Shown here: in pieces, positions 3,851-59,828 of the stretch
How positions within the stretch are numbered: the stretch's first letter is position 1
Layout: each line of letters opens with the position of its first letter
DNA from: Squalus acanthias
Taxonomy: Eukaryota
Length of the DNA stretch: 64,000 nt
NCBI GenBank assembly: GCA_030390025.1
Contig: CM059431.1
Location: 131,132,001 to 131,196,000 of the forward strand
Direction: 5' to 3'
Made by a program: the position numbers and the translations under genes
Notes under the pieces: generated by a model
The model's database searches: none
Seen by the model: the letters and a program-made list of their open reading frames with translations, nothing else
What the model was told of the DNA's origin: nothing

Positions 3851-4278
3851 TTTTTTTGCCAAGCAAGTCCTCCCAGGCAGTCTCTGAAGACATTCAATGC
3901 AGCAGCATCAGAGGCAATGTTCAGACCTAATACTACTACTACCTTCATCACATCTCCGTTGTAATAGTGGACCTGCAGCCGATAGTCAGCTATCCACTTG
4001 TGCTCCCGCCAGGTTTCACTGGAGTGTTTCACACCAGGCGTGCTTCACGTCATAAGAGGGTTAAACTAGCTATAGCATTTCAAAATGGCATTACAGAGCC
4101 AAGTTAGAGCTTGTTAAGGGCTTTAATGGCCTCTCCCGCCTCTTGAAGGCGGGACGAAGTCGGGAACTCCACGACTGATTATGTCAAAATTGCGTGGAGG
4201 CGGGATGGAGTCGGGATGGGGTCGGAAACCACGACCCCGCAAATTTAACCCCCCACACGCCTCCAAACCCGACTCCAT

Positions 4279-6922
4279 CAGGAAATAGTTGGGGCATGTA
4301 ATAAGGGAACAGCTATAATTATGGGGGATTTTAACTATCATATTAACTGGACAAATCAAATTGGGCAGGGCAGCCTTGAGGAAGAGTTTATTGAGTGTCT
4401 TAGGGACGGATTTCTTGAGCAGTATGTAACTGATCCTACAAGGGGGCAAGCAACCTTGGACCTGGTACTGTGTAATGAGTCTGGATTAATTAATAATGTT
4501 CTAGTTAAGGATCCCCTTGGAATGAGTGACCATAACATGGTTGAATTCCATATCCAATTAGAGGGTGAGAAGGTTGGTTCTCAAACAAGCATACTGAGCT
4601 TGAATAAAGGAGACTATGATGGCATGAGAGCAGAATTGATTAAAGTGGACTGGGAAAATAGATTAAAGGGTAAGACGGTACATGAGCAGTGGTGTTCATT
4701 CAAGGAGTTATTTTACAACTTTCAAAATAAATATATTCCACTGAGGAAAAAAGGGTGTAAAAGAAATGACAGCCATCCATGGCTAAGTAAAGAAATTAAA
4801 GAAAGTATCCAACTAAAAACAAGGACATATAAGGTAGCCAAAGTTAGTGGGAGGATAGAGGATTGGGAAGTCTTCAAAAGACAACAAAAAGTAACTAAAG
4901 GATTGATTAAGAAAGGGAAAATAGACTATGAAAATAAATTAGCAAAAAATATAAAAACAGATAGCAAGAGTTTCTATAGTTATATAAAAAGAAAAAGGGT
5001 GGTTAAGGCAAACGTAGGTCCCTTAGAGGATGAGACCGGGAAATTAATGGTGGGAAACATGGAGATGGCAAAAATGCTGAACAAATATTTTGTTTCAGTC
5101 TTTACGGTAGAGGACACTAAGAATATCCCAACACTGGACAAACAGGGGGCTCTAGTGGGGGAGGAGCTAAATACGATTAAAATCACTAAGGAATTGGTAC
5201 TCAGTAAAATAATGGGACTCAAGGCGGATAAATCCCCTGGACCTGATGGCTTACATCCTAGGGTCTTGAGGGAAGTGGCAGTAGGAATTGTGGATGCTTT
5301 GGTAATAATTTTCCAAAACTCCCTGAACTCAGCAAAGGTCCTGGCAGATTGGAAAACTGCTAATGTAACACCCTTATTTAAAAAGGGTTGTAGGCAGAAG
5401 GCTGGAAATTATAGACCAGTTAGCCTAACATCTGTGGTGGGTAAAATTTTGGAGTCTATTATTAAGGAGACAGTAACAGAACATTTAGATAAACATAATT
5501 TAATAGGACAAAGTCAGCATGGCTTTATGAAGGGGAAGTCATGTCTGACAAATTTGCTCAAGTTCTTTGAGGACATAACGTACAGGGTGGATAAAGGGGA
5601 ACCAGTGGATGTGGTGTATTTAGACTTCCAGAAGGCATTCTACAAGGTGCCACATAAAAGATTATTACTCAAGATAAAAAATCACTGGATTGGGGGTAAT
5701 ATTCTGGCATGGGTGGAGGATTGGTTATCTAACAGGAAGCAGAGAGTTGGGATAAATGGTTCATTCTCGGACTGGCAACCAGTAGCCAGTGGTGTTCCGC
5801 AGGGGTCGGTGCTGGGTCCCCAACTCTTTACAATCTATATTAATGATTTGGAGGAGGGGACCGAGTGTAACATATCAAAGTTTGCAGATGATACAAAGAT
5901 GGAAGGGAAAGTAGAGAGAGAGGAGGACATAAAAAACCTACAAGGGGATATAGACAGGCTGGGTGAGTGGGCAGAGATTTGGCAGATGCAATACAATATT
6001 GGAAAATGTGAGGTTATGCACTTTGGCAGGAAAAATCAGAGAGCAAGTTATTATCTTAATGGCGAGAAACTGGAAAGTACTGCAGTACAAAGGGATCTGG
6101 GGGTCTTGGTGCAAGAAAATCAAAAAGTTAGTATGCAGGTGCAGCAGGTGATCAAGAAAGCCAATGGAATGTTGGCTTTTATTGCTAGGGGGATAGAATA
6201 TAAAAACAGGGAGGTATTGCTGCAGTTGTATAGGGTATTGGTGAGACCGCACCTGGAGTACTGCATACAGTTTTGGTGTCCATACTTAAGAAAAGACATA
6301 CTTGCTCTTGAGGCAGTACAAAGAAGGTTCACTCGGTTAATTCCGGGGATGAGGGGGTGGACATACGAGGAGAGGTTGAGTAGATTGGGACTCTACTCAT
6401 TGGAGTTCAGAAGAATGAGAGGCGATCTTATTGAAACATATAAGATTGTGAAGGGGCTTGATCGGGTGGACGCGGTGAGGATGTTTCCAATGATGGGTGA
6501 AACTAGAACTAGGGGGCATAATCTTAGAATAAGGGGCTGCTCTTTCAAAACTGAGATGAGGAGAAACTTTTTCACTCAGAGGGTAGTGGGTCTGTGGAAT
6601 TTGCTACCCCAGGAAGCTGTGGAAGCTACTTCATTAAATAAATTTAAAACAGAAATAGACCGTTTCCTAGAAGTAAAGGGAATCAGGGGTTACGGGGAGC
6701 GGGCTGGAAATTGGACATGAGTTTGAGTTCGGATCGGTCAAGGCCCTGTGGGTGGCGGAGCGGGCCCAGGGGCCGAGTGGCCTGGTCCTGCTCCTACTTC
6801 TTGTGTTCTTTAGAGTTGAGGTTGGATCAGATCAGCCATGATCTCATTGAATGGTGGAGCAGGCTCGAGGGGCCGATTGGTCTACTCCTGCTCCTATTTC
6901 TTATGTTCTTATGTTCTTATGT
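4279..6922 (+). mobile_element. CR1 LINE 'B', young and 5'-truncated
   Basis: Uninterrupted ORF2 portion, 3' UTR, (TTATGTTC)n tail; TCCAT at 4274-4278 and 6922-6926 is the likely TSD. Confidence 0.95.
4321..6720 (+). CDS. CR1 ORF2 (C-terminal endonuclease part plus reverse transcriptase), 799 aa, N-terminally truncated
   Basis: GDFN, LDLVL, SDH endonuclease motifs; KSPGPDG, YRPVSLTS, QHGF, GVPQGSVLGP, FADD RT motifs; KAFD changed to KAFY. Confidence 0.9.
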   Translation: MGDFNYHINWTNQIGQGSLEEEFIECLRDGFLEQYVTDPTRGQATLDLVLCNESGLINNVLVKDPLGMSDHNMVEFHIQLEGEKVGSQTSILSLNKGDYDGMRAELIKVDWENRLKGKTVHEQWCSFKELFYNFQNKYIPLRKKGCKRNDSHPWLSKEIKESIQLKTRTYKVAKVSGRIEDWEVFKRQQKVTKGLIKKGKIDYENKLAKNIKTDSKSFYSYIKRKRVVKANVGPLEDETGKLMVGNMEMAKMLNKYFVSVFTVEDTKNIPTLDKQGALVGEELNTIKITKELVLSKIMGLKADKSPGPDGLHPRVLREVAVGIVDALVIIFQNSLNSAKVLADWKTANVTPLFKKGCRQKAGNYRPVSLTSVVGKILESIIKETVTEHLDKHNLIGQSQHGFMKGKSCLTNLLKFFEDITYRVDKGEPVDVVYLDFQKAFYKVPHKRLLLKIKNHWIGGNILAWVEDWLSNRKQRVGINGSFSDWQPVASGVPQGSVLGPQLFTIYINDLEEGTECNISKFADDTKMEGKVEREEDIKNLQGDIDRLGEWAEIWQMQYNIGKCEVMHFGRKNQRASYYLNGEKLESTAVQRDLGVLVQENQKVSMQVQQVIKKANGMLAFIARGIEYKNREVLLQLYRVLVRPHLEYCIQFWCPYLRKDILALEAVQRRFTRLIPGMRGWTYEERLSRLGLYSLEFRRMRGDLIETYKIVKGLDRVDAVRMFPMMGETRTRGHNLRIRGCSFKTEMRRNFFTQRVVGLWNLLPQEAVEATSLNKFKTEIDRFLEVKGIRGYGERAGNWT

Positions 6923-9187: not shown

Positions 9188-11713
9188 TATTTATGTTGTT
9201 GGTCCAGTTAAGTTTCTGGTCAATGGTGACCCCCCTAGGATGTTGATGTTGGGGGATTCGGCAATGGTGTCAAGGGGTGGTGGTTAGATGCTCTCTTGTT
9301 GGAGATAGTCATTGTCTGGCAGTTGTGTGGCACGAATGTTACTTGCCACTTATCAGCCCGAGCCTGAATGTCGCCCAGGTCTTGCTGCATGCGGGCATGG
9401 ACTGCTTCATTATCTGAGGAGTTGTGAATGGAACTGAACACTCTGCAATCATCAGCGAACATGCCCACTTCTAACCTTATGATGGAGGGAAGGTCATTGA
9501 TGAAGCAGTTGAAGATGGTTGGGCCTAGGACACTGCCCTGAGGAACTCCTGCAGCCATGTCCAGGGGCTGAGATGATTGGCCTCCAACAACCACAACCAT
9601 CTTCCTTTGTGCTAGGTATGACTCCAGCTAGTGGAGAGTTTTTCCCCTAATTCCCATTGACTTCAGTTTAACTAGGGCTCCTTGATGCCACACTCGGTCA
9701 AATGCTGCCTTGATGTCAAGAACGGTCACTCTCACCTCACCTCTGGAATTCAGCTCTTTTGTCCATGTTTGGAACAAGACTGTAATGAGGTCAGGAGCAG
9801 AGTGGTCTTGGCGGAACCCAAACTGGGCATCAGTGAGCAGGTTATTGGTGAGTAAGTACCGCTTGATTGCACTGTCAACAACACCCTCCATCACTTTGCT
9901 GATGATTGAGAGTAGACTGATGAGGCGGTAATTGGCCGGATTGGATTTGTCCTGCTTTTTGTGGACAGGACAGACCTGGGCAGTTTTCCACATTGTCAGG
10001 TAGATGCCAGTGTTGTAGCTGTACTGGAGCAGCTTAGCTAGAGGCGCAGCTAGTTCTGGAGCACAAGTCTTCAGCACGATAGCCGGGATGTTGTCCGGAC
10101 CCATAACCTTTGCTGTATCCAGTGCACTCAGCCGTTACTTGATACCACGTGGAGTGAATCAAATTGGCTGAAGACTGGCTTCTGTGATGGTGGGGACCTC
10201 AGGAGGAGGCCGAGATGGATCATCCACTCGGCACTTCTGGCTGAAGATGGTTGCTAACGCTTCAGCCTTGTCTTTTGCACTTGTGTGATGGGCTCCACCA
10301 TCATTGAGGATGGGAATGTTCATGAAGCCTCCTCCTCCCGTCAGTTGTTTAATGGTCCACCAACATTCATGACTGGATGTGGCAGGACTGCAGAGCTTTG
10401 ATCTGATCCGTTGGTTGTGCGATCGCTTAGCTCTATCTATAGCATGCTGCTTCCGTTGTTAAGCATGCATGTAGTTCTGTGTTGCAGCTTCCCCAGGTTG
10501 GCACCTCATTTTTAGGTAGGCCTGGTGCTGCTCCTGGCATGCTCTTCTGCACTCCTCATTGAACCAGAGTTAGTCACCTGGCTTGATGGTAATGACAGAG
10601 TGAGGGATATGCTGGGCCATGAGGTTACAGATTGTGGTGGAATACAATTCTGCTGCTGCTGATGGCCCAATGCACCTAATGGATGCCCAGTTTTGAGCTG
10701 CTAGATCTGTTCTGAATCTATCCCATTTAGCACAGTGATAGTGCCACACAACACGATGGAGGTTGTCCTCAGTGTGAAGATGGGACTTCATCTCCACAAG
10801 GACTGTGCGGTGGTCACTGCTACCTATACTGTCATGGACAGATACATCTGCGACAGGTAGATTGGTGAGGATGAGGTCAAGTCGGTTTTTCCCTCGTGTT
10901 GGTTCTAGTAGTGGCGCTACCGAGACATTGAAGTCCCCCACCCAGAGTACATTCTGTGCCCTTGCTATCCTCAGTGCTTCTTCCAAGTGGTGTTCAACTG
11001 GTTCACTAGCTGATGGAGGGCAGTAGGTAGTAATCAGCAGGAGGTTTCCTTGCCCCTGAGACTTCATGGGATCCAGAGTCAATGTTGAGAACTCCCAGGG
11101 CTACTCCCTCCTGACTGTATGCCGCCACCTCTGGTGGGTCTGTCCTGCTGGTGGGACAGGACATACCCAGGGATGGTGATGGAGGAGTCTAGGACATTGG
11201 CTGAAAGGTATGATTCTGAGAGTATGACTCGGTCAGGCTGTTGCTTGACTAGTCTGTGGGACAGCTCTGCCACTTTTGGCACAAGTCCCCAGATGTTAGT
11301 GAGGAGGACTTTGCATGATCGACTGGGCTGGGTGTGCCGTTGTCGTGTTCGAAGCCGGTGCCGAGGTCGTTGCCGGGTGGTCCGTCTGGTTTTATTCTTA
11401 TTATTGTTTCTTGTAGAGGTTTGTTACAACTGAGTGGCTTGCTAGGCCATTTCAGAGGGCAGTTAAGAGTCAACCACATTGCTGGAGTCACATATAGGCC
11501 AGGCCAGACCAGGTAAGGACGGCAGATTTCCTTCCCTAAAGGACATTAGTGAACCAGATGGGTTTTACAACAATCCAGTAGTTTCATGGTCACCATTACT
11601 GATACTAGCTTTTTATTCCAGATACCGTGGTGGGATTTGAACGCACGTCTCCGGATCATTAGTCCAGGCCTCTGGGTTACTCGTCCAGTAACAACCACTA
11701 TGCTACCGTTCCC
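9188..11713 (-). mobile_element. CR1/L2-group LINE with a single EN-RT ORF and a tRNA-like 5' head (degenerate)
   Basis: ORF fragments with QQPD.VILSESYL, VGDFN, LDLILTN, SDH, GPDNIP, YRLISLL, DIKAAFDRVWH, GVPQGSVLGP, FADD; A-box-like TAGCATAGTGG (11705-11695) and B-box GTTCAAATCCC (11642-11632). Confidence 0.85.
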
Positions 11714-49791: not shown

Positions 49792-50756
49792 GTGGCCATT
49801 ATTCATTAGCCCTGATGGTGAGCATCAGAATGCTCTTCCAATATGTCGGGAGTCGGGGAGAGGTGGGAGGGGAGAGGATCTTCACAGCCAAACATATGCT
49901 GTCCTCAGACACTGTCCACATATATGTACTTCTAGCACTGGTTCCTGGGTAGTGATAAGGAATGAGAAACCTGATAACTTTTTTCATCTTTAACTTAAAG
50001 ATGCTGAGATCAATTGTAGCACCCCTATCAGCTGAGATCAGGTAATTCAGCACAACAAGAGATAATTTTGGATCTGACTGCTCTCTATGGCTGTTCCACA
50101 TTGAATAAACTCATCATGGGAGCCTCCAGTTTAACAACTTATTTGTATCCATACTTTACTTGGTATGTTCTCACTAATGTACTTGTATAGGAGTAGCACC
50201 AAACACAGATACAAATAGAAAAAATGGTGTAAACTGCAGGGAAATCCAATCATGAACTAGACACACAGAGACCTTCGGGGAGAAATTCGGTACCTTAGCG
50301 CCTCGAGTTAGCGCCTGGCGGGGGTGCTAACGGTGTGCTGAGGCAGTAGTGCCACGACGAGGCGAATCCAGCAAAGCATGCCAAATCCAGCACCCCTGTA
50401 GCGCTGCCGCTACAAGTTAGCACCGGGGACTTCAGCAGCTGGCAGATCGTGACGTCGGTGAGCGTAACGTTCACTGGGCGCCTGATCTGCAAAATTGATT
50501 ATTGTCCCCTGCCTCAGCACCTCACCCCGACAGCGACAGGGAGAGGAGGCGTGAAGCAGGCGGTAGCCAGACCCTGGGGCGCTACTTAAAGGGATAATGA
50601 GTAATGAGTCGCAGCTCTCAGGTTAGTGCTGTTTCACTGCTTCCTTGTCAGTTTGACATTGTGCAACAGTTTAATTCAGTCATTTAAAGGTTATTTAGTC
50701 TCCGGAGTATTGTGGCTACGAACAATTAGTTACATTTATTCTCACAACATATCAAA

Positions 50757-51923
50757 GTGCTGCACATCGTTACATTAATGGGGGCTGTGCTGGCAGTCGA
50801 CCTCGCCCTCCAGGATCTAGAGCGGAGGGAGTGCAGGCAGCGAGAAAGATTGGAACATGTGGCCAGAGGGAGGAGGAGGGCCATGAGGGCTCTCAACAGG
50901 AGGCCTTACCCTCCGAGGATAATCCAAGAGCACTTCTCCTACCTCCAATTAAGCAAGGAGCAGTGTATTAGAAGGCTCCGCTTCACCAAGGAGGTGGTCA
51001 CAGAACTCTGTCATCTCCTGCAGCCAGACCTCGAGCCTCAGATCAGGACGACCACGGCTCTTTCAGTGGCAGTCAAGGTCACCGTCTCCCTCAATTACTT
51101 CGCCAGTGGATCCTTCCAGTCTGCAACAGGAGATATAGCTAACATCTCGCAGTTCACCGTTCATCGCTGCATCCGGGAAGTCACAGATGCTCTCTACAGT
51201 AGGAGAAGGGATTACATTTCCTTCCCCATCACCAGAGAGAAGCAGGGCGAGCGTGCATGTGTCTTTGCCAGGATAGCGGGCTTCCCCATGGTGCAGGGCG
51301 CCATTGACTGCACCCACGTGGCTTTGCGGGCACCGCATAACAATCCTGAGATCTTCCGTAACCTCAAAGGCTACCACTCACTTAATGTGCAGTTGGTGTA
51401 CGACCATATACAGCGAATTCTTAATGTCAATGCCCACTATCCTGGCAGCAGCACAATGCCTTCATCCTGTGCCAGATCGGTGTGCCAGCACTCTTTGAGC
51501 CATCAAGCTCGCGGCTGGCTGGTCGGGTACAAGGGCTATCCACTCTCCACCTGGCTCATGACTCTCCTCTGCAACCCCAACACTCCTGCCCAGCACTCAT
51601 ATAATGAGAGCCATGCCGCCACCAGGAACATCATCAAGCAGACCATCGATGTGCTCAAGCAACGGTTCCACTGCCTTGACCGCTCGGGAGGAGCCCTCCA
51701 GTACTCGGCTGAGTGGGTGTCCCATTTCGTCATCGTCTGCTGCATGCTCCACAATTTGGCCATCATGAGGGCCCAGCCCTTGCCACCAGGGATTGCGGGA
51801 CCACCTCAAGAGGAGGAAGAGGACGAGGAGGAGGAGGAACAGGAGCGAGGGAGGAGGCAGCCACTTAATCGGCCTTCTGGAAGGGCGGTCCATGATCGCC
51901 TCATCAGACTGCGGTTCCAATAA
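50757..51923 (+). CDS. Harbinger (HARBI1-like) DDE transposase, open but probably inactive
   Basis: RLRFTKE, FASGSFQ, GAIDCTH, KGYHSLNVQLV, CCMLHNLAI; GDKGY is GYKGY, IEQ is IKQ, and a compensated frameshift covers ~51452-51505. Confidence 0.9.
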   Translation: MLHIVTLMGAVLAVDLALQDLERRECRQRERLEHVARGRRRAMRALNRRPYPPRIIQEHFSYLQLSKEQCIRRLRFTKEVVTELCHLLQPDLEPQIRTTTALSVAVKVTVSLNYFASGSFQSATGDIANISQFTVHRCIREVTDALYSRRRDYISFPITREKQGERACVFARIAGFPMVQGAIDCTHVALRAPHNNPEIFRNLKGYHSLNVQLVYDHIQRILNVNAHYPGSSTMPSSCARSVCQHSLSHQARGWLVGYKGYPLSTWLMTLLCNPNTPAQHSYNESHAATRNIIKQTIDVLKQRFHCLDRSGGALQYSAEWVSHFVIVCCMLHNLAIMRAQPLPPGIAGPPQEEEEDEEEEEQERGRRQPLNRPSGRAVHDRLIRLRFQ

Positions 51924-52782
51924 ATTAAACCCCAGATCCACGTTGCTCACCACATCCCTATCATTCCATCCCTGGTGGCAGGCCATTTCACAGCACAAAG
52001 CTGAAATGAGACACACTACAAAATAATCCAAACTGAATTAATAAATTTATCAATAATCAGTTAACACATGTTTACAACAACAATATTAACTATTCACCCT
52101 TATGCAATCCCTTAGTGCCTCTCATTACGGTGCCTTTGCCTACTCTAGTGCTCCTACAAAGTGTTGGCCCAGTGGTTGCAGCAGGGCTGCTGAGTGTCCG
52201 TGCGGGAGACTTCAGATGGCCTTGCAGGACGCCCTCGAGCAGCTCTGGGTCTGGAAGGCCCAGCTGTAGACTGCACCACCTCAGGCTGGGCGGCAGCAGT
52301 CTGGGCTGGCTGGATGACAGGCAGCAACAAGGGCAATGGTGGAGTGCCAGCAGTGGGAGCAGGAATGCTGTCATCCTGAGAGAGAACAGCAGGTTCCTGC
52401 TCCACTGACCCACTGCCACTCCCCCAGGGCAGCACCTCAGCATCCCTAGCAATCTGTTGGAGCACAGATTGCTGGCCTGCTGCGACATCGTGAAAGCCCC
52501 GGTCGACAGTGGTAGACCCAGCCATGATGACAGCAGTCAGAGCTTGCGTGGCATCAAGCTGAGACTGCATGAGAGCAGTCTGAGATTGAATGGTACAACC
52601 ATAGACTGCATTACAGCACTAAGACATTGCGTCACTTCCACCTGTGCTGCAATGGAAGCTGCCAGATCGCCCATGTGGGGTGAGGGGGAAGTGGGATGTG
52701 AGAAGAAGGAGTAGGGATGAACATACCGTTGTTGTCCCCAAGAGGGTCAACGTCGCTGGTGGCCACGGCGCCCACCACCTGG

Positions 52783-55700
52783 TGTAATCCAAACATCTGT
52801 CTGGATACTTTGATTTGTGACACTCGAGTTACAAAATACAAACTGAGTCGACAGCAATAAGATCCATACGATGGTGTTTAATCATGACTTTACCCGTTAA
52901 CAATTACAATGTTTTACTTTCTAAAGCCTAATTGCATTACTTGGATTACGTGTCAGGGAATATACTCATTAGGCTATTGACAATCGCGCTGGGGTTGATC
53001 AGACCACAACCGATCACCATCAGAAAGCTGATCAGGCCTCTGCTCCACGAGACTTGAGCCCAACTGCTGGAATTCCTCTCCTTCTGCTCCTTCCTGTCGA
53101 CCGTAGGGGCTAGCCTCTGGCCGTGCTATTCTTGCTGTCTTATATTGTCCGAATACACAACAACAACTTGTATTTATATAGCGCCTTTAACGAAGTAAAA
53201 CGTCTGCACAGGAGTATTTTAAGACAACAAATTTGACACCGATCCACATAAGGATAAATTAGGGCAGGTGACCAAAAGCTTGGTCAAAGAGGTAGGTTTT
53301 AAGGAGCATCTTAAAGGAGGAAAGAGAGGTAGCGAGGCGGAGAGGTTTAGGCAGGGAATTCCAGAGCTTAGCATCTAGGCAACAGAAGGCCCGGCCACCA
53401 ATGGTTGAGCAATTATAATCAGGGATGCTCATGAAGGCAGAATTAGAGGAATGCAGATATCTCGGGGTTGTGGGGCTGAAGGAGATTACAGAAATAGGGA
53501 GGGGCAAGGCCATGGGAGATTTGCTTAACCGGGAGCCAATGTAGGTCAGCAAGCACAGGGGTGATGGGCGAACGGAACTTGATGCGAGTTAGGACATGGG
53601 CAGCCGAGTTTTGGATGACCTCAAGTTTACGTAGGGTGGAATGTGGGAGGCCAGCCAGGAGTGCATTGGAATAGTCAAGTCTAGAGGTGACAAGGCATGG
53701 ATGAGGGTTTGAGCAGCAGATGAGCTGAGGCAAGGGCGGAGATGGGCGATGTTACGGAGGTGGAAGTAGGCAGTCTTTGTTATGCTGCGGATATGTGGTC
53801 GGAAGCTCATTTCAGGGTCAAATATGACACCAAGGTTGCGAACAGCGTGGTTCAGCCTCAGACAGATGTTAGGGAGAGGGATGGAGTCAGTGGCTAGGGA
53901 ACGAAGTTTGTGGCGGGGACCGAAAACAATGGCTTCGGTCTTCCCAATATTTAATTGAGAAAATTTTTGCTCATCCAGAACTGGATGAAGGGCAAGCAGT
54001 CTGACAATTTAGACACCGTGGGGGGGGGGGGGTTGAGAGAAGAGGTAGTGAAGTAGAGCTGGGTGTCGTCAGCGTACATGTGGAAACTGACGCTGTGTTT
54101 TCGGATGATGTCACCAAGGGGCAACATGTAGATGAGAAATAGGAGGGGGCCAAGGATAGATCCTTGGGGGACACCAGAGGTAACGATGTGGGAGCGGGAA
54201 GAGAAGCTGTTGCAGGTGATTCTCTAGTTACGATTAGATAGATAAGAATGGAACCAGGCGAGTGCAGTCCCACCCAGCTGGATGATGGTGGAGAGGCGTT
54301 GGAGAAGGATGGAGTGGTCAACCATGTCAAAGGCTGCAGACAAGTCAAGAAGGATGAGGAGGGATAGTTTACCTTTGTCACAGTCACAAAGGATGTCATT
54401 TGTGACTTTGATGAGAGCTGTTTCGGTATTGTGACAAGGGCAGAAACCTGATTGGAGAGATTCAAACATGGAATTGCGGGAAAGATGGACACGGATTTGG
54501 GAGGCGACAACACGTTCAAGGACTTTGGAGAGGAAAGGGAGGGTGGAGATGGGGAGGTAGTTTGCAAGGACAGAGGGATCAAGGTTTGTTTTTTTGAGGG
54601 GGGTGATGAGAGCAGATTTGAGGGAGAGGGGGACAGTACTTGAGGAGAGAGAACCGTTAACAATATCAGCTAACATGGGAGCCAGAAAAGGAAGTTGGGT
54701 GGTCAGCAGTTTGGTGGGAATAGGGTCGAGGGAACAGGAGGTGAGTCTCATAGACAAGATAAGTGCAGAGAGATCATAAGGGGAGATCGGAGAGAAACTG
54801 GAGAAAGATGTGAGTTCAGAGCTAGGGCAGGGAGGAACCTTAGAGGAAGTTTGGTCCAGTGGGCTAGGGGAAGGAAGGGAAGCGGCAGAGGCAGCTGAAC
54901 GGATGGTCTCATACTTAGAGACAAAGAAGTCCATGAGCTCCTCACACTTGTTATCGGAGGTGAGGGTGGAGGAGACGGGAGAAGGGTTTAAGAAGACGGT
55001 TAGCAGTAGAGAATAGGAGCCGGGATTTAACTTTGCATTCCAGAATGATTCTGGAATAGTGAGCAATTTAAGCAGACGGGAGCAGGGCCTGATAATGCTT
55101 TATGTGATCCAGCCAGATCTGGCGGTGAATGGCTAAACCAGTTGTCCGCCATATCCGTGCGAGTCTGCATCCCTTGGACTTAAGGGAGCGATGATGAGAG
55201 CCGTACCAGGGGGAACGGCCAGGGTGAGAGAGGGTAATTGTTTTAGTAGGGACTAGGGCATCAAAGGTGATGGTGAGGGTGTGGTTGAACAGATCGGTAG
55301 CTGCAGAAATGTCATGGTGAATGGAGGGCCAGAGGCTGAACAGTTGGGATTTCGTAAGTGCAGTTGTAAGAGAGTTGAGAGAGAGTTTTTTCCAGGGGCA
55401 GACACAGCAGGAAGTAGGGTTGTGGGGGGGTGGGTGGAAGGGGGATGTGGGTGGAGAGCGATACGAGGAAATGGTCAGAGATGGCCTTATCTGCAATTGA
55501 CACAATGGGAGTAGCGAGGCCACGAGAGATGGCAAGATCGAGGGGCTGGCCGTGAATATGGGTTGGGGAGTTTACATGGAGGGAGAGATTAAGGGAGGAT
55601 AGGAGGCTAGTGAACTCAGAGGAGAGAGAGCATGATGAATTGAGATGGAGTTTGAAATCACCGAGGATGAGAAGTCGTTCGGTGCAGAGGCTGAGGGAGG

Positions 55701-56391
55701 AGAACAGTGAAGATATCTCAGTGATAAAATTTTTATGGTACTTGGGTGGGCGGTAGAGAACAAGGATTTTAAATGAGAGGCGAGAGGGGTGGAATAAGGT
55801 GAGATGCTCAAAGGAGGAGAAACCGCCGGGGGAATAGGGGGACAGACCAAGGTGTGATTTGGTGATGAGAGCCACACCGCCACCACGGCAGTCTGAGCGG
55901 GGCAAGCGGTGGAAGGTATAGCCAGGTGGGGAGGCTTTGTTTAAGGGTAAGGTGTCATCACACCTCAGCTAAGTTTCCGTGTTACACCTCCTTGCCCGAT
56001 ACCAGAAGTTTCCTGTGGTTTTGCACTTTGATAGCTCCTTATCGAAAACTGTTGCTGACATGTCCGCAGCTCCTTTGATATGAGGTTTCGTTTACTAATG
56101 CATTTCCTTGCTTCTAATGTCTGTGAGTTTTTCTTTAAAACTGCAAGTCGTTATCTTGTTAGCCAGACATGCCTTCCAAGGTTGAATATACATTCCACTC
56201 AATCCCAGATTTTGTAAGCTGCGATTCTGCAGCTGGGATCTTCAAGTTTATGTTGAAAAGTTTCTCCGAGGGCCTTTTCTTTAATTGCCCACAGCAGGCT
56301 TGGTCAATTTCTGAGTTCAGTTTTAACGAGCTTTAAGCTCCTATTATACTGTCCATCAAAGTCGTTCACTTTGATGTAGATCGATTCTGCA
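52783..56391 (-). repeat. 3' LTR of the provirus (~780 bp once the L2 is removed)
   Basis: Follows the PPT; TATA-like AATATAAG at ~53146-53139; ATTAAA at ~52882-52877; ends TTACA. Confidence 0.85.
53159..55982 (-). mobile_element. L2 LINE (5'-truncated, degenerate ORF2) inserted in the LTR
   Basis: TET.L, LGDF, ISDH, LDPIPT, QSGF, LLDLSAAFD.VDH, GVPQGSILGP, YADD, SRLDYSNALL; GCGCTATATAAATACAAG(TTG)n tail; TACAC TSD. Confidence 0.93.
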
Positions 56392-56457
56392 TCTTCCCCC
56401 TCAAACGCCTGGGGAATCTTGTTGATTCAGGTGCTTCATACGTGAGGCCCACAACCG

Positions 56458-58829
56458 TCAGTGAATGATTATCACTAACCATAATCGTTCCAAAAATTGG
56501 GAACGACACCCTCCCAAATCTGACCACGTAACCATACATATACAGGGCAATAAAGCCCCCTTCCGATGAGTTCTATTACAACAGTTTCTGTTCTTCTTCT
56601 TTAACATTTTGAGCTTGCGTTTAACTTTTCGCCTTTTACAACGATTACAAGATTCAATCAGCAAATACACAACAATGATTAATTGTATAACTACTAAGGC
56701 ATGAGATATTGTCCTGATCCAGGGGTGGATTTCAACATTCATACCCACACTCCACCATGAATTAGTAGTTTTTATGTTGTTAATCTTTTGCCGAGTTTCC
56801 CGATTGTGTTGTTGTAACTGATAATACTGTTTCCTGGATCGTTCAATTTCCGTTCTTAGTTTGGTTTGGTGCTCCGGTAAAGGTGGGATGTCATAACCAA
56901 ATCTAGTAACATACTTATGTAGTTCAGACTTAATTCCTTCTATTACGTTCATTGTGTTGGTATACGTTCACTAACTCTTGCATCCCTATCCTGACTGGTT
57001 TTGTCGGGTTAAAACAAAAACTTGGCCGTTTAATCTGACATGTGGTGTTAGTCCCATATTTGTAGTGTGTCTCACCGGTGGTTACACAATACTCACCCTT
57101 CCCTCAATACGCTATCGTGGTGTGGATAAACTCCACTCCGAATACTTCCATCGTACAATTAATTGTTCCCTTAGTTTTATTTTACCCACATAGTGAATGG
57201 TCATGTTGTTGGATCTCGTAGGGACATACAATCATTTGTCCATGCTTCTTACATCCCTGTAGCTCTGCTCCCACCAGGGTCCCGCTAACATTCACCAGGT
57301 AAGTGTGGTGTTGATCGTATTGCATGTGCATGTCCCCTCGCATAACTCCAATATTTTCTAATCAATAGACCCCGATGGGTTTTCCTCCCTTAGGAATTAC
57401 GGGAAAGTATAATACCAATCCCATCATAGTCAAATTTGATCCTGTTTTACACTCATGTCTCACCGGATAAACTTGTGTTAAACCCCTTAATTCGCACGTG
57501 GTGATATTACTGTGTTACTTAACCAAAGCATTCTTCAAACAATCTCATGTTATCTCCTGCGTGTTCTACCAACCAGGATCCATACATTACACACACATCA
57601 CTTTGTGCCGCTTCATCAGAAGTGTTCTTATCCTCCTTAATCAATAAATTTACTGTTTTTGCATGTTTTTCCAATTGTGTGACTACATCTTGTAGATGTA
57701 TCGTCATAATTTGGTCTTCTCCTAGTTCCTTATCCTGATTAGTATTTGTTTCCTGCAGAATTTTCTTAAGTTGTGCCTTAGTATCCTTAATCTCTTTATC
57801 CAAAGATGCTAAATCTAAACTATTTACAAGTGAAGTTCCCGTATTAAAAACAGTTGCTGCATCATTTATCAAATTATGCTTCCTTCTCCTACCACGAGTT
57901 TCAGTTTCATTCCTCTCCGAACTTTGGTAAATGTGATCCTCATGATGATATCCATAACTGTTACCGTTCCTAGCCCAAAAATCGTCCACAATTTGTTGTA
58001 ACAACCCCCTAAAGAGGGTGGTTTTTGGTTTACACCAATTTGGCAACCCCATGTCAGTTAAATTCAACATTACCGGTACTACCTCGTGATGGACATCATG
58101 GTACAGAATCATATGAGTAGGGATAATAACTAAACCATTCTTAGGTCCGTCGGTGTGGGTGGAGCAAACAATCTGGGTTTCCTGTTGCTTTTCCTGTGTC
58201 TTATTCAAAGGAGATTTGGAGCGAAACTTCAACTCTACCGCATGTATCACTGAATCCCCATTACCGCATCCTCGCACATGGTAGGTATCTACACACCCCA
58301 CTCTACCATAACATCCAGTCCCACTTATGTACCACGGATAAGGATCACTGACATTAGTCATGCCGCATTGCCCTGTATATGTTCCGACATTGTGTTGTGC
58401 ACAGCCATGCACACACCCATAAATTCCCTCATCCATTTCCCACAAATTTTCCCAGCATAACTTGGCATCCTTGCCAGAGCTTCCACTTCTCGACTGGGTC
58501 GGTTTCTTCCACTTTTCATTCTCCCAGGGGTTTCCCACCTGATAGTACCTCCCAGCCTTATTCTCCTCAGCCTTAACAAACCATATTACTGGTGGTCTAG
58601 TTCCACTACCTCCTTCACATTTTACACATATCTTCTTCCCCTCTTGGACCTCGTAAGTGTTGACCCATACCGTCCCCGTGCAATTTGTCTCACACAGGAC
58701 GAGAGTGGCATTGCCCCTAGTTCTGTGACAATGTACTTTCATTTGGAAGATGTCACTTTTAGAGGCTCCTCCGGTGACGACCACCGTTACCAGCCCGATC
58801 GTCACCACCCACGACTGCCATACCCTCAT
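56458..58829 (-). pseudogene. env: Envelope glycoprotein: signal peptide, V-set Ig-like domain, furin-like site, fusion peptide/heptad, Cys-rich region, TM; first 436 codons open, distal part broken
   Basis: ATG at 58829 (MRVWQSWVVTIGLVTVVVTGGAS); RGRRRKH-NLINDAATVFNTGTSLVNSLDLASLDKEI; TM ISHALVVIQLIIVVYLLI then a basic tail; lies directly before PPT and 3' LTR. Confidence 0.85.
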
Positions 58830-58834
58830 CGTGC

Positions 58835-58862
58835 CTGCAAAACAAAACAAAAGATTGGGCAA
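58835..58862 (-). promoter_or_regulatory. env splice acceptor
   Basis: TCTTTTGTTTTGTTTTGCAG|GCACGATG: polypyrimidine tract and CAG, 5 nt before the env ATG. Confidence 0.75.
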
Positions 58863-59828
58863 TTTGATGTAGATCGATTCTACACTGGCACCCAATAATC
58901 TGCAGCACTCTATTTTCCAGCGCAGACAGTGTTTGGGTGTCAGCTTGTCCCCCGCCTGTGCACTCCTGCCCCCTCCTGTTGTGAGCCACCTTGGCCTGCA
59001 AGAGAAAGGAAAATGTGTGAGTGAGTGTGGAGCAATGTGTTTGGGTGAAGTGCCTGCCATAGTTGAATAGCTGTCATTGTGTGCAAGGTGTGAGATGTGG
59101 GTGTAAGTATTGGTAGGTAGAGATCGTTGGTGGGTGAGCGCTGGAGGTGTGGTGCTTTGGCCAGTGTGTGCAGACTATGGTACAGATGGTGGTATGTAGC
59201 ATTTGTTGAGGCATTGACTCACCCTGACCACCCGAGTGAGGTCATTAACTTTCTTCCTGCACTGTGTGTGGGTCCTGGGGACCACAGTGCTGCCTGAGAC
59301 ATGCTGGGCTACCTCCCTCCACATGGCACGGAAGACTTGCGGCGATGGTCTCCTGCCACTTGTTGGGTAGAGCACCGCCCTCCATCTCTCCACAGCGAAC
59401 ACCAACTCCTCCAATGCTTGGTCCTAAAATCTGCGGGCTCTCTCCCTGGGGAGTAGATCTGACATCATGACACCTGCTTGAGTCGTTCGGCACCTTGGGT
59501 TTGGCCTAGCTCCTGCTTGCTAACACAGGTTCACAGTCAGCAATGCTGAGAATGAGGTTCTGCAGCCTGAATGAACCTCCCTTTTAAGAACTGGAAAGAG
59601 CCTGTGGCAATGATGACTTGCAATTAGACTGCACCTGATATTGGTTAGTGCTTCGAGTGTAGCGCCACTGAGCTAGGCCATTAGTGCTTGATTTAGAGCT
59701 CCAATCCTTTCTTTTAGCGATAATAGTTAATTTTGCATGCAGCGTGATTCATTAGCGCCCGGCGCCAAATCTCAAACTTTTCTGAAGTTACCGCCCATTC
59801 CTGGGCTTTAATGAATTTCTCCCCCCTT

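What the first reader, a model, noticed from the sequence alone, without database searches (positions are those of the whole stretch)
50276..59825. Complete Harbinger DNA transposon carrying an env-only provirus
Seen: intact TIRs and TSD enclose the transposase, the Myb/SANT gene and, inside Myb exon 2, a 6102-bp provirus with CCAG TSD. The provirus keeps only 22 bp of 5' LTR joined to the env splice acceptor, so promoter, primer-binding site, gag and pol are gone while env, PPT and 3' LTR remain. Known: elements with intact TIRs can be mobilised in trans. Inference: a viral fusogen cassette that could be moved by a cut-and-paste transposon; the simpler reading is a one-off nested insertion followed by deletion.
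Basis: partly seen in the sequence, partly recalled or inferred. Interest (0 to 1): 0.8.

Follow-up and report, generated by a model that had tools for sequence, protein, structure and literature searches.

The report
Dead retrovirus remnant inside decayed Harbinger
An old, already broken Harbinger DNA transposon was hit once by a retrovirus-like element that later lost its gag and pol genes, its envelope gene is now a pseudogene, and the combination exists only at this one place in the genome, so it is an ordinary nested insertion and not a mobile fusogen cassette.

Summary

What holds up:
- A PIF/Harbinger copy spans 50276-59825. Its family has thousands of copies.
- It carries a 6102-bp LTR-element remnant at 52783-58884 on the minus strand, flanked by a CCAG duplication. 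Uninterrupted copies have a single CCAG at that site.
- Only about 22 bp of the 5' LTR remain, joined just upstream of env.

Why the composite is dead:
- It is single-copy. Three 30-mers across the junctions occur once in 3.7 Gb. Of 31 of 31 scored LTR-end matches, only the window's own abuts Harbinger DNA.
- Env is open for 436 codons. The rest is then broken by at least 2 frameshifts and 3 stops, before the membrane anchor.
- The 3' LTR is split by a 2824-bp LINE.
- The transposase has two frame-breaking deletions, the Myb gene has an early stop and lacks about 600 bp, and the outermost base of the left TIR is mutated.

Other proviruses of the family carry different internal deletions.

Side result: the env family looks like paramyxovirus F, from a low-confidence model. 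Its database relatives are unnamed proteins of sharks, skates and a frog.

The parts
50273..50275 (.). Left flanking CTT, putative 3-bp Harbinger target-site duplication
   Evidence: The same CTT lies at 59826-59828. Family support is weak: 1 of 5 other full copies is perfect at the same offsets.
50276..50288 (+). Left terminal inverted repeat (13 bp). The outermost base is C where the family has G.
   Evidence: 11 of 11 other distinct copies have G.
50778..51923 (+). Harbinger transposase gene: 381 open codons. A 1-bp deletion after 51451 and a 5-bp deletion after 51500 put about 16 codons out of frame.
   Evidence: Pfam DDE_Tnp_4 E 5.9e-28. DNA alignment with 7 other copies.
52674..52675 (.). 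Site of an internal deletion of about 600 bp in the Myb-gene region
   Evidence: 4 of 5 other copies carry 576-613 extra bp here.
52727..52782 (-). Distal part of Myb exon 2, after the insert (splice sites inferred from sequence only)
52779..52782 (-). CCAG target-site duplication, 3' side of the provirus
52783..53158 (-). 3' LTR, distal part, ending ..TTACA
53159..55982 (-). LINE inserted in the 3' LTR (endonuclease and reverse transcriptase remnants), flanked by a GTGTA duplication (53154-53158 and 55983-55987)
   Evidence: Pfam RVT_1 and Exo_endo_phos_2. Break in LTR homology. Junctions read.
55983..56391 (-). 3' LTR, proximal part, starting TGCAGAATCG. The whole LTR is 780 bp without the LINE.
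56392..56402 (-). Polypurine tract immediately 5' of the 3' LTR
   Evidence: sequence.
56461..57521 (-). Broken 3' part of env (central domain, second heptad repeat, membrane anchor, tail): at least 2 frameshifts and 3 in-frame stops
   Evidence: Part of this region reads as one 252-codon frame in the C17 copy.
57522..58829 (-). Env ORF1: 436 open codons (signal peptide, surface part, RGRRRK cleavage motif, first heptad repeat). It lacks 57 nt that two other copies have.
58830..58860 (-). Pre-env leader with a pyrimidine tract and AG (putative splice acceptor; not tested)
   Evidence: Conserved in the C1 and C8 copies.
58863..58884 (-). 22-bp stub of the 5' LTR. The deletion junction lies within 58860-58863.
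   Evidence: (D3).
58885..58888 (-). CCAG target-site duplication, 5' side of the provirus
58889..58995 (-). Proximal part of Myb exon 2 (acceptor inferred)
59233..59468 (-). Myb/SANT-like gene exon 1, with an in-frame TAG at codon 15 (59424-59426)
   Evidence: Pfam Myb_DNA-bind_4 and _5, weak. Translation.
59813..59825 (-). Right terminal inverted repeat (13 bp)
59826..59828 (.). Right flanking CTT

Best explanation
This is a stack of three unrelated transposition events followed by decay. It is not a functional unit.

1. A PIF/Harbinger element inserted here. It belongs to a very abundant, old family.
2. A retrovirus-like LTR element integrated into exon 2 of the Harbinger's Myb-like gene, in the same orientation as that gene, and made a 4-bp CCAG duplication. 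The element carries an F-type class I envelope gene.
3. A deletion running from nucleotide ~22 of the 5' LTR to about 30 nt upstream of the env start codon removed the promoter, primer-binding site, gag and pol. I infer this happened after integration, because both ends and both duplications are intact. The timing is inference.
4. A LINE then inserted into the 3' LTR.
5. Point mutations and small indels destroyed the distal half of env, the Harbinger transposase and the Myb gene.

Nothing indicates that the composite ever moved or that its env is used by the host.
For: Single copy:
- 30-mers across 52782/3, 58884/5 and 58862/3, with up to 3 mismatches, each occur once in the 3.7-Gb assembly.
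- 211-bp junction probes find only half-length matches elsewhere (40 of about 2300 candidates scored in each).
- For the LTR 3' end, 31 of 31 candidates were scored. In the loci held for the LTR matches, only the window's own LTR abuts Harbinger DNA.

Clean nested insertion:
- The Harbinger alignment is seamless once the insert is removed.
- Empty sites have one CCAG.
- 4 of 6 solo LTRs read show perfect 4-bp duplications.

Decay:
- Env has 436 open codons and is then broken.
- A LINE sits in the LTR.
- The transposase carries 1-bp and 5-bp deletions.
- The Myb gene has a stop and a deletion of about 600 bp.
- The terminal TIR base is changed.

Deletions are the rule in this family:
- The C17 copy joins RNase H to env. 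It is present twice, as a duplication that shares the same flank.
- The C8 copy lacks most of pol.
- The C1 copy joins LTR position ~490 to a point 87 bp upstream of the window's breakpoint.

Age: Harbinger copies are 86-93% identical to the window copy and LTR copies mostly 79-95%.
Against: - The window's transposase frame is still open over 381 codons, whereas the 5 other full copies read are more broken.
- 24 of 107 other scored transposase matches have no stop inside the match, so a source of transposase in trans cannot be excluded.
- Env ORF1 has no stop over 436 codons at about 7% divergence, and dN/dS against other copies is 0.39-0.54.
- Env lies in the same orientation as the Myb gene, so a read-through or spliced Myb-env transcript is conceivable.
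- Only one assembly was available. No related species could be searched, so polymorphism, orthology and age are untested.
Confidence: 0.9

Rival explanations
1. One reading: the Harbinger ends make the env remnant a cargo that a family transposase can cut and paste in trans, that is, a DNA-transposon-borne fusogen cassette.
For: - Both TIRs are present, with 12 of 13 positions matching.
- The family is huge, and some copies keep transposase frames without stops.
Against: - No second copy of any junction exists.
- The outermost base of the left TIR is mutated.
- Copies are 7-14% diverged from the window copy, which suggests the family has long been quiet.
- The cargo env is truncated before its anchor.
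Confidence: 0.02
2. The env-only remnant was once co-opted by the host, for example as a receptor-blocking restriction factor of the Fv4 kind, expressed from the Myb promoter or an upstream promoter, and was pseudogenised later.
For: - Two independent integrations (the window and C1) lost the stretch from the LTR through pol, with env-side breakpoints only 87 bp apart.
- Env has the same orientation as the Myb gene.
- ORF1 is open for 436 codons.
Against: - Env is broken here, and in the parts read of the other four loci of the family.
- The C1 copy also has large deletions inside env.
- Myb exon 1 has a stop.
- The deletions show no splice-site signature; the C1 junction looks like microhomology.
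- With four independent integrations, two similar deletions can be chance.
Confidence: 0.05
3. The deletion arose before integration: a defective viral DNA carrying only the U3 tip and env was integrated as such.
For: Both ends carry intact TG/CA termini and a matching 4-bp duplication. Either timing would produce this.
Against: By the established scheme of retroviral reverse transcription (background knowledge), the left LTR is copied from plus-strand strong-stop DNA. A left end with only 22 nt of U3 would need an unusual template switch. A later genomic deletion is simpler. The sequence cannot decide between the two.
Confidence: 0.15
4. Assembly artefact: the junctions are mis-joins of repeats.
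For: The region is highly repetitive. Short-read contigs of four public runs did not bridge 58884/58885.
Against: Each of the three nested elements has its own matching target-site duplication: CTT, CCAG and GTGTA. Mis-assembly does not produce that.
Confidence: 0.02

Closest known systems
PIF/Harbinger DNA transposons of vertebrates
   Same: - DDE_Tnp_4 transposase.
- A second, oppositely oriented Myb/SANT-like gene.
- Short TIRs and a 3-bp flanking repeat.
- Thousands of copies with the same ends.
   Different: This copy is decayed:
- The transposase has two frame-breaking deletions.
- The Myb gene has a stop, a deletion and the insert.
- The flanking CTT is not the TWA-type target recalled for many Harbingers (recalled, not tested).
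Lokiretroviruses (Wang and Han 2020, PMC7947760; abstract, section 5 and passages read)
   Same: - An LTR element with gag, pro, pol and env in its relatives.
- Env has a signal peptide, a basic cleavage motif, coiled coils and an anchor.
- The model of a full-length relative matches paramyxovirus and pneumovirus F proteins first.
- The gag region is rich in coiled coil.
   Different: - No sequence-level hit to PF00523 for the window's env pieces or for 12 of the 22 relatives.
- The model is of low confidence, pLDDT 49.5.
- No RT phylogeny was done.
- The first RNase H-like domain scores well (RT_RNaseH_2, E 2.4e-25) and does not look degenerate.
- The paper's main text lists five host classes and never uses the word 'cartilaginous'.
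Truncated env-retaining proviruses such as mouse Fv4 (recalled, no paper read)
   Same: Loss of the 5' LTR, gag and most of pol, with env and the 3' LTR retained.
   Different: As I recall, Fv4 has an intact, expressed env that protects the host. Here env is a pseudogene and no expression data exist.
Env-carrying Ty3/gypsy elements with F-type or gB-type envelopes (Chary and Hayashi, bioRxiv 10.1101/2023.10.26.564294; abstract only)
   Same: A retroelement carrying an F-like fusion glycoprotein.
   Different: By its abstract, that work covers invertebrate metazoans. The relationship to this family was not tested.
Ordinary nested transposon insertions in repeat-rich genomes
   Same: Element within element within element, each with its own target duplication. 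The younger elements interrupt the older ones.
   Different: Nothing essential.

Membership tests
PIF/Harbinger transposon | DDE transposase of the DDE_Tnp_4 / Plant_tran type | tested here: met
   PF13359 at E 5.9e-28, 97.9 bits against a cut-off of 24.8, covering the full profile 1-158.
PIF/Harbinger transposon | Second gene with a Myb/SANT-like DNA-binding domain | tested here: inconclusive
   PF13837 scores 22.9 bits (cut-off 27) and PF13873 19.1 bits (cut-off 21.7). ORFs from the corresponding region of other copies gave no hit.
PIF/Harbinger transposon | Short terminal inverted repeats shared by a multi-copy family | tested here: met
   a 13-bp TIR with 12 of 13 positions matching in the window. 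There were 4965 and 3994 first-look candidates for the two ends.
PIF/Harbinger transposon | 3-bp target-site duplication | tested here: inconclusive
   CTT/CTT in the window. Among 5 other full copies, 1 is perfect and 1 has one mismatch at the same offsets.
LTR retroelement / endogenous retrovirus | LTRs with TG..CA ends, a polypurine tract and a short target duplication | tested here: met
   780-bp LTR, purine tract, CCAG duplication. 4 of 6 solo LTRs have a perfect 4-bp duplication.
LTR retroelement / endogenous retrovirus | gag, protease, reverse transcriptase and integrase | tested here: not met
   All are absent from the window copy. They are present in relatives: RVT_1 at 3.3e-30, RT_RNaseH_2 at 2.4e-25, zf-CCHC at 3.6e-6, RVP weak at 0.023. 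The window copy is therefore a deleted member.
Lokiretroviruses | Env with sequence similarity to fusion glycoprotein F0 (PF00523) | tested here: not met
   No Pfam hit for the window's env pieces or for 12 relatives. Profile against PDB sequences: nothing.
Lokiretroviruses | F-like fold of Env | tested here: inconclusive
   The model of relative P0016 has pLDDT 49.5. Foldseek gave 31 matches at E <= 0.001. The listed ones are paramyxovirus or pneumovirus F chains plus one foamy-virus Env chain, with TM-scores of 0.10-0.32.
Lokiretroviruses | RT phylogeny placing the element with lokiretroviruses; tether plus acquired RNase H | not tested
The C17 copy is deleted right at the start of a possible second RNase H.
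Transposon-borne cargo (captured gene moved by a DNA transposon) | The same composite at two or more sites with different flanks | tested here: not met
   only the window's own locus.
Co-opted env gene (Fv4- or syncytin-like) | Full-length open env | tested here: not met
   a stop after codon 436, then frameshifts and stops before the anchor.
Co-opted env gene (Fv4- or syncytin-like) | Orthologues under purifying selection; expression | not testable with these tools
   No related genomes are held (header). No run is on record as RNA.

The most novel reading that the evidence does not exclude
The env remnant belongs to an undescribed F-type-envelope retrovirus lineage of cartilaginous fishes, lokiretrovirus-like. 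Its nearest database relatives are unnamed proteins of sharks, skates and a frog. In this lineage, env-retaining deletion derivatives arose more than once (the window and C1), which may reflect a transient host benefit of env-only proviruses before decay.
Probability: 0.1. Interest if true: 0.45.

Novelty: new member of a known kind. Interest (0 to 1): 0.13.

Why it matters
A DNA transposon that had really picked up and spread a viral fusogen would be a new route for moving envelope genes within and between genomes. The tests show that this has not happened here: one copy, dead cargo, decayed carrier.

What remains is modest. It is a well-resolved example of three-level nesting that can serve as a relative time marker. 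It also gives a pointer that this genome holds a small family of retrovirus-like elements with an apparently F-type envelope, about four independent proviruses plus roughly two dozen solo LTRs. The relatives of that envelope in public protein sets are unannotated.

Tried and rejected
- ESM Atlas look-up of env ORF1: no usable hit.
- Word-indexed protein search at near length: 1545 candidates, none at E <= 0.001.
- PDB sequence searches with env ORF1 and with the family profile: only chance-level hits.
- Pfam on the env pieces and on 12 relatives: no envelope family. Two of the 22 HMMER hits are evidently spurious (an Ig protein and a bacterial cadherin-like protein).
- Public runs: no RNA holder listed, and no run holds more than 0.45 of the sampled words.
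- Contigs of four runs laid on 58600-59100: no listed piece bridges 58884/58885. Many contigs show the uninterrupted Harbinger sequence at that point, as expected from other copies. This is not informative about the composite.
- Earlier findings of the scan: none near.
- A splicing origin of the LTR-env joins was considered and rejected. The breakpoints lack GT/AG signatures, and U3 sequence is retained.
- A retrotransposed, deleted C17 form was considered and rejected. The two C17 loci share the same flank at 93% over 477 bp, so they are a duplication of one insertion.
- Literature search for Harbinger + endogenous retrovirus + env + nested: 20 papers hold all four terms. The 10 listed are reviews and surveys; none has a title or abstract start describing such a composite (listing only).
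Full report
**Setting.** The window is part of a 3.7-Gb eukaryotic assembly (contig C7, header). It is dense in LINE remnants. The finding covers 50276-59825.

**The carrier.**
- A 501-bp probe over the left end found 4965 first-look candidates. In most of the 40 scored matches, homology begins at query base 78, which is window 50277, at 86-89% identity.
- A probe over the right end found 3994 candidates. In most scored matches homology stops at query base 426, which is window 59825, at 88-93% identity.
- In all 11 other distinct left ends that I read, the base before GGGGAGAAATTC is G. The window has C there. The family TIR is therefore 13 bp, and the window's left TIR has lost its outermost base.
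- CTT flanks both ends. With the same offsets, only 1 of 5 other full copies has a perfect 3-bp repeat and 1 has a single mismatch. The 3-bp duplication is plausible but not firmly shown.
- The plus-strand ORF 50778-51920 is a DDE_Tnp_4 transposase (E 5.9e-28).
- The minus-strand gene has weak Myb/SANT-like hits below Pfam's cut-offs.

**State of the carrier.**
- The transposase frame is open for 381 codons. Aligned to 7 other copies, it has a 1-bp deletion after 51451 and a 5-bp deletion after 51500, so about 16 codons are read out of frame. In the other copies this stretch reads ..SSHDAFILRQ... From background knowledge this region holds the second catalytic aspartate of Harbinger transposases; I did not test that.
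- Myb exon 1 has a TAG at codon 15.
- The copy lacks 576-613 bp that 4 of 5 other copies carry at 52674/52675.
- The five other full copies read are also broken.
- A genome-wide protein search gave 125,529 first-look candidates. Among the 107 other scored candidates, 24 have no stop inside the match. Coding-competent transposase genes may therefore exist elsewhere. Frameshifts are not excluded by that measure.

**The insert.**
- After slicing out 52783-58884 and one CCAG, the Harbinger aligns across the site without a break to 4 other copies.
- Two uninterrupted copies read ..GGGCG-CCAG-GTGGT.. with a single CCAG.
- The insert ends TG..CA. Solo LTRs of the same family show perfect 4-bp duplications in 4 of 6 cases read.
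- The 3' LTR is 780 bp: 56391 down to 55983, then 53153 down to 52783. It is preceded by a purine tract.
- It is split by a 2824-bp LINE (53159-55982) with endonuclease and reverse-transcriptase remnants and a GTGTA duplication. Without the LINE the proviral remnant is 3278 bp.

**The 5' junction.**
- The first 22 nt of the LTR are present at 58884 down to 58863.
- Homology of two other proviruses (C8, C1) to the window's pre-env region ends at 58860. Both continue upstream with shared sequence that the window lacks.
- The window copy therefore has a deletion from LTR nucleotide ~22 to about 30 nt before the env ATG.
- A pyrimidine tract plus AG sits 5 nt before the ATG and is conserved in C1 and C8. 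Calling it a splice acceptor is reasonable but untested.

**Env.**
- From the ATG at 58829 the frame is open for 436 codons. It contains a signal-like N-terminus, cysteine-rich surface part, RGRRRK motif and first heptad region.
- It then stops. The continuation has to be read in another frame with three stops, and then in a third frame for the last 169 codons (second heptad region, membrane anchor, tail).
- In the C17 copy, much of the stretch that is split in the window (late central domain, second heptad region and anchor) is one 252-codon frame, so these are real disruptions.
- The window also lacks 57 nt (19 codons) near codon 45 that C17 and C8 have.
- No copy among the five loci reads as an intact env over the parts examined.
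- dN/dS of ORF1 is 0.54 against C17a (408 codons), 0.39 against C17b (330 codons) and 0.48 against C8 (436 codons), at about 7% nucleotide divergence. That is intermediate, as expected if part of the divergence arose while the virus replicated. It cannot speak to host selection.

**Is the composite repeated? No.**
- The 211-bp probes across both outer junctions found only the window at full length. All other scored hits cover the Harbinger half only, to within five bases beyond the junction, except one that runs 15 further bases at 94% identity. Only 40 of about 2300 candidates were scored in each.
- The LTR-specific probes avoid that limit. 30 of 30 candidates and 31 of 31 candidates were scored.
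- In the loci held for these matches (plus five Harbinger control copies), Harbinger sequence adjoins an LTR only at the window's own locus. One unrelated 33-bp hit lies about 1 kb from an LTR in L080.
- Exact-pattern scans of the whole assembly with 30-mers over the three junctions, allowing up to 3 mismatches, each returned one place, the window itself, and none for the reversed control.

**The family.**
- Env-bearing relatives at 87% identity or more occur at C17:33.24 Mb, C17:0.15 Mb, C8:75.52 Mb and C1:16.52 Mb. More distant env-like matches (67-77%) exist elsewhere and were not examined.
- The two C17 loci share the same flank (93% over 477 bp). They are one integration that was duplicated.
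- The C17 copy has RT and an RNase H-like domain (RVT_1 at 3.3e-30, RT_RNaseH_2 at 2.4e-25) joined directly to env near codon 45.
- The C8 copy has a coiled-coil gag region, a CCHC knuckle, the start of a protease and then a short ORF with no family match just before env, so most of pol is missing.
- The C1 copy joins LTR position ~490 to a point 87 bp upstream of the window's breakpoint, and it has further deletions inside env.
- Every provirus of the family is thus deleted in its own way. The window's LTR-env join is one such accident.

**What kind of env.**
- HMMER against 1.84 billion representative proteins gave 22 hits at E <= 0.001, none with an envelope Pfam family.
- The named relatives are uncharacterised proteins of a skate, three sharks and a frog.
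- A model of the 739-residue relative P0016 was poor (pLDDT 49.5). Its layout is a beta-rich N-terminal part, long helices, a beta-rich central domain, a second helix and an anchor.
- Its Foldseek matches point to a paramyxovirus-F-like class I fusion protein: of the 31 matches at E <= 0.001, the listed ones are paramyxovirus or pneumovirus F chains apart from one foamy-virus Env chain (rank 31), and a second foamy-virus chain follows at rank 36; TM-scores are 0.10-0.32.
- This resembles what was reported for lokiretroviruses (PMC7947760; abstract, section 5 and passages). Membership is not established: there is no PF00523 hit, and no RT tree was made.

**Verdict.** The description was careful and mostly correct. 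The thing described is an ordinary, single-copy, three-level nested insertion in which every coding part is damaged. I see no support for a transposon-borne fusogen cassette.

Noticed in passing
G000 loci L030/L031 (C17:33.238-33.244 Mb and C17:0.148-0.155 Mb): Two proviral loci 33 Mb apart on the same contig, in opposite orientation, carry the same RNase H-to-env deletion and the same 3' flank (93% over 477 bp). They are one insertion that was later duplicated, or an assembly duplication.
   Followed up: partly
window 50778-51923 and genome-wide: The Harbinger transposase family is extremely abundant: 125,529 first-look candidates. 24 of 107 other scored matches have no stop codon across the match, so some copies may still be coding-competent.
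   Followed up: partly
proteins P0001-P0021: The env relatives in public protein sets are unnamed or mis-named. One shark entry is called 'Niban 1-like' and one 'Ig-like domain-containing'. The set includes one frog protein beside shark and skate proteins. The family seems unannotated as viral.
   Followed up: partly
G000:C1:16522504-16528543 (loci L034, L044, L072, L087): A second, independent provirus also lacks everything between its 5' LTR (cut at about position 490) and a point 87 bp upstream of the window's env-side breakpoint. Its 5' LTR part is only 81% identical to the window's LTR, against 92% for its 3' LTR part, which hints at a recombinant or a different LTR subfamily.
   Followed up: partly
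window 4249-6720, 10570-11100, 20695-21681, 29612-30493: Several further LINE remnants (RVT_1, Exo_endo_phos_2). One has an 823-codon open frame at 4249-6717.
   Followed up: no
Harbinger flanks in loci L053, L054, L056, L057, L011: Several copies have similar sequence just outside both ends, roughly GACAT(G) on the left and its complement on the right. This suggests either a longer palindromic target preference or a slightly longer terminal repeat in a subfamily. It blurs the TSD call.
   Followed up: partly
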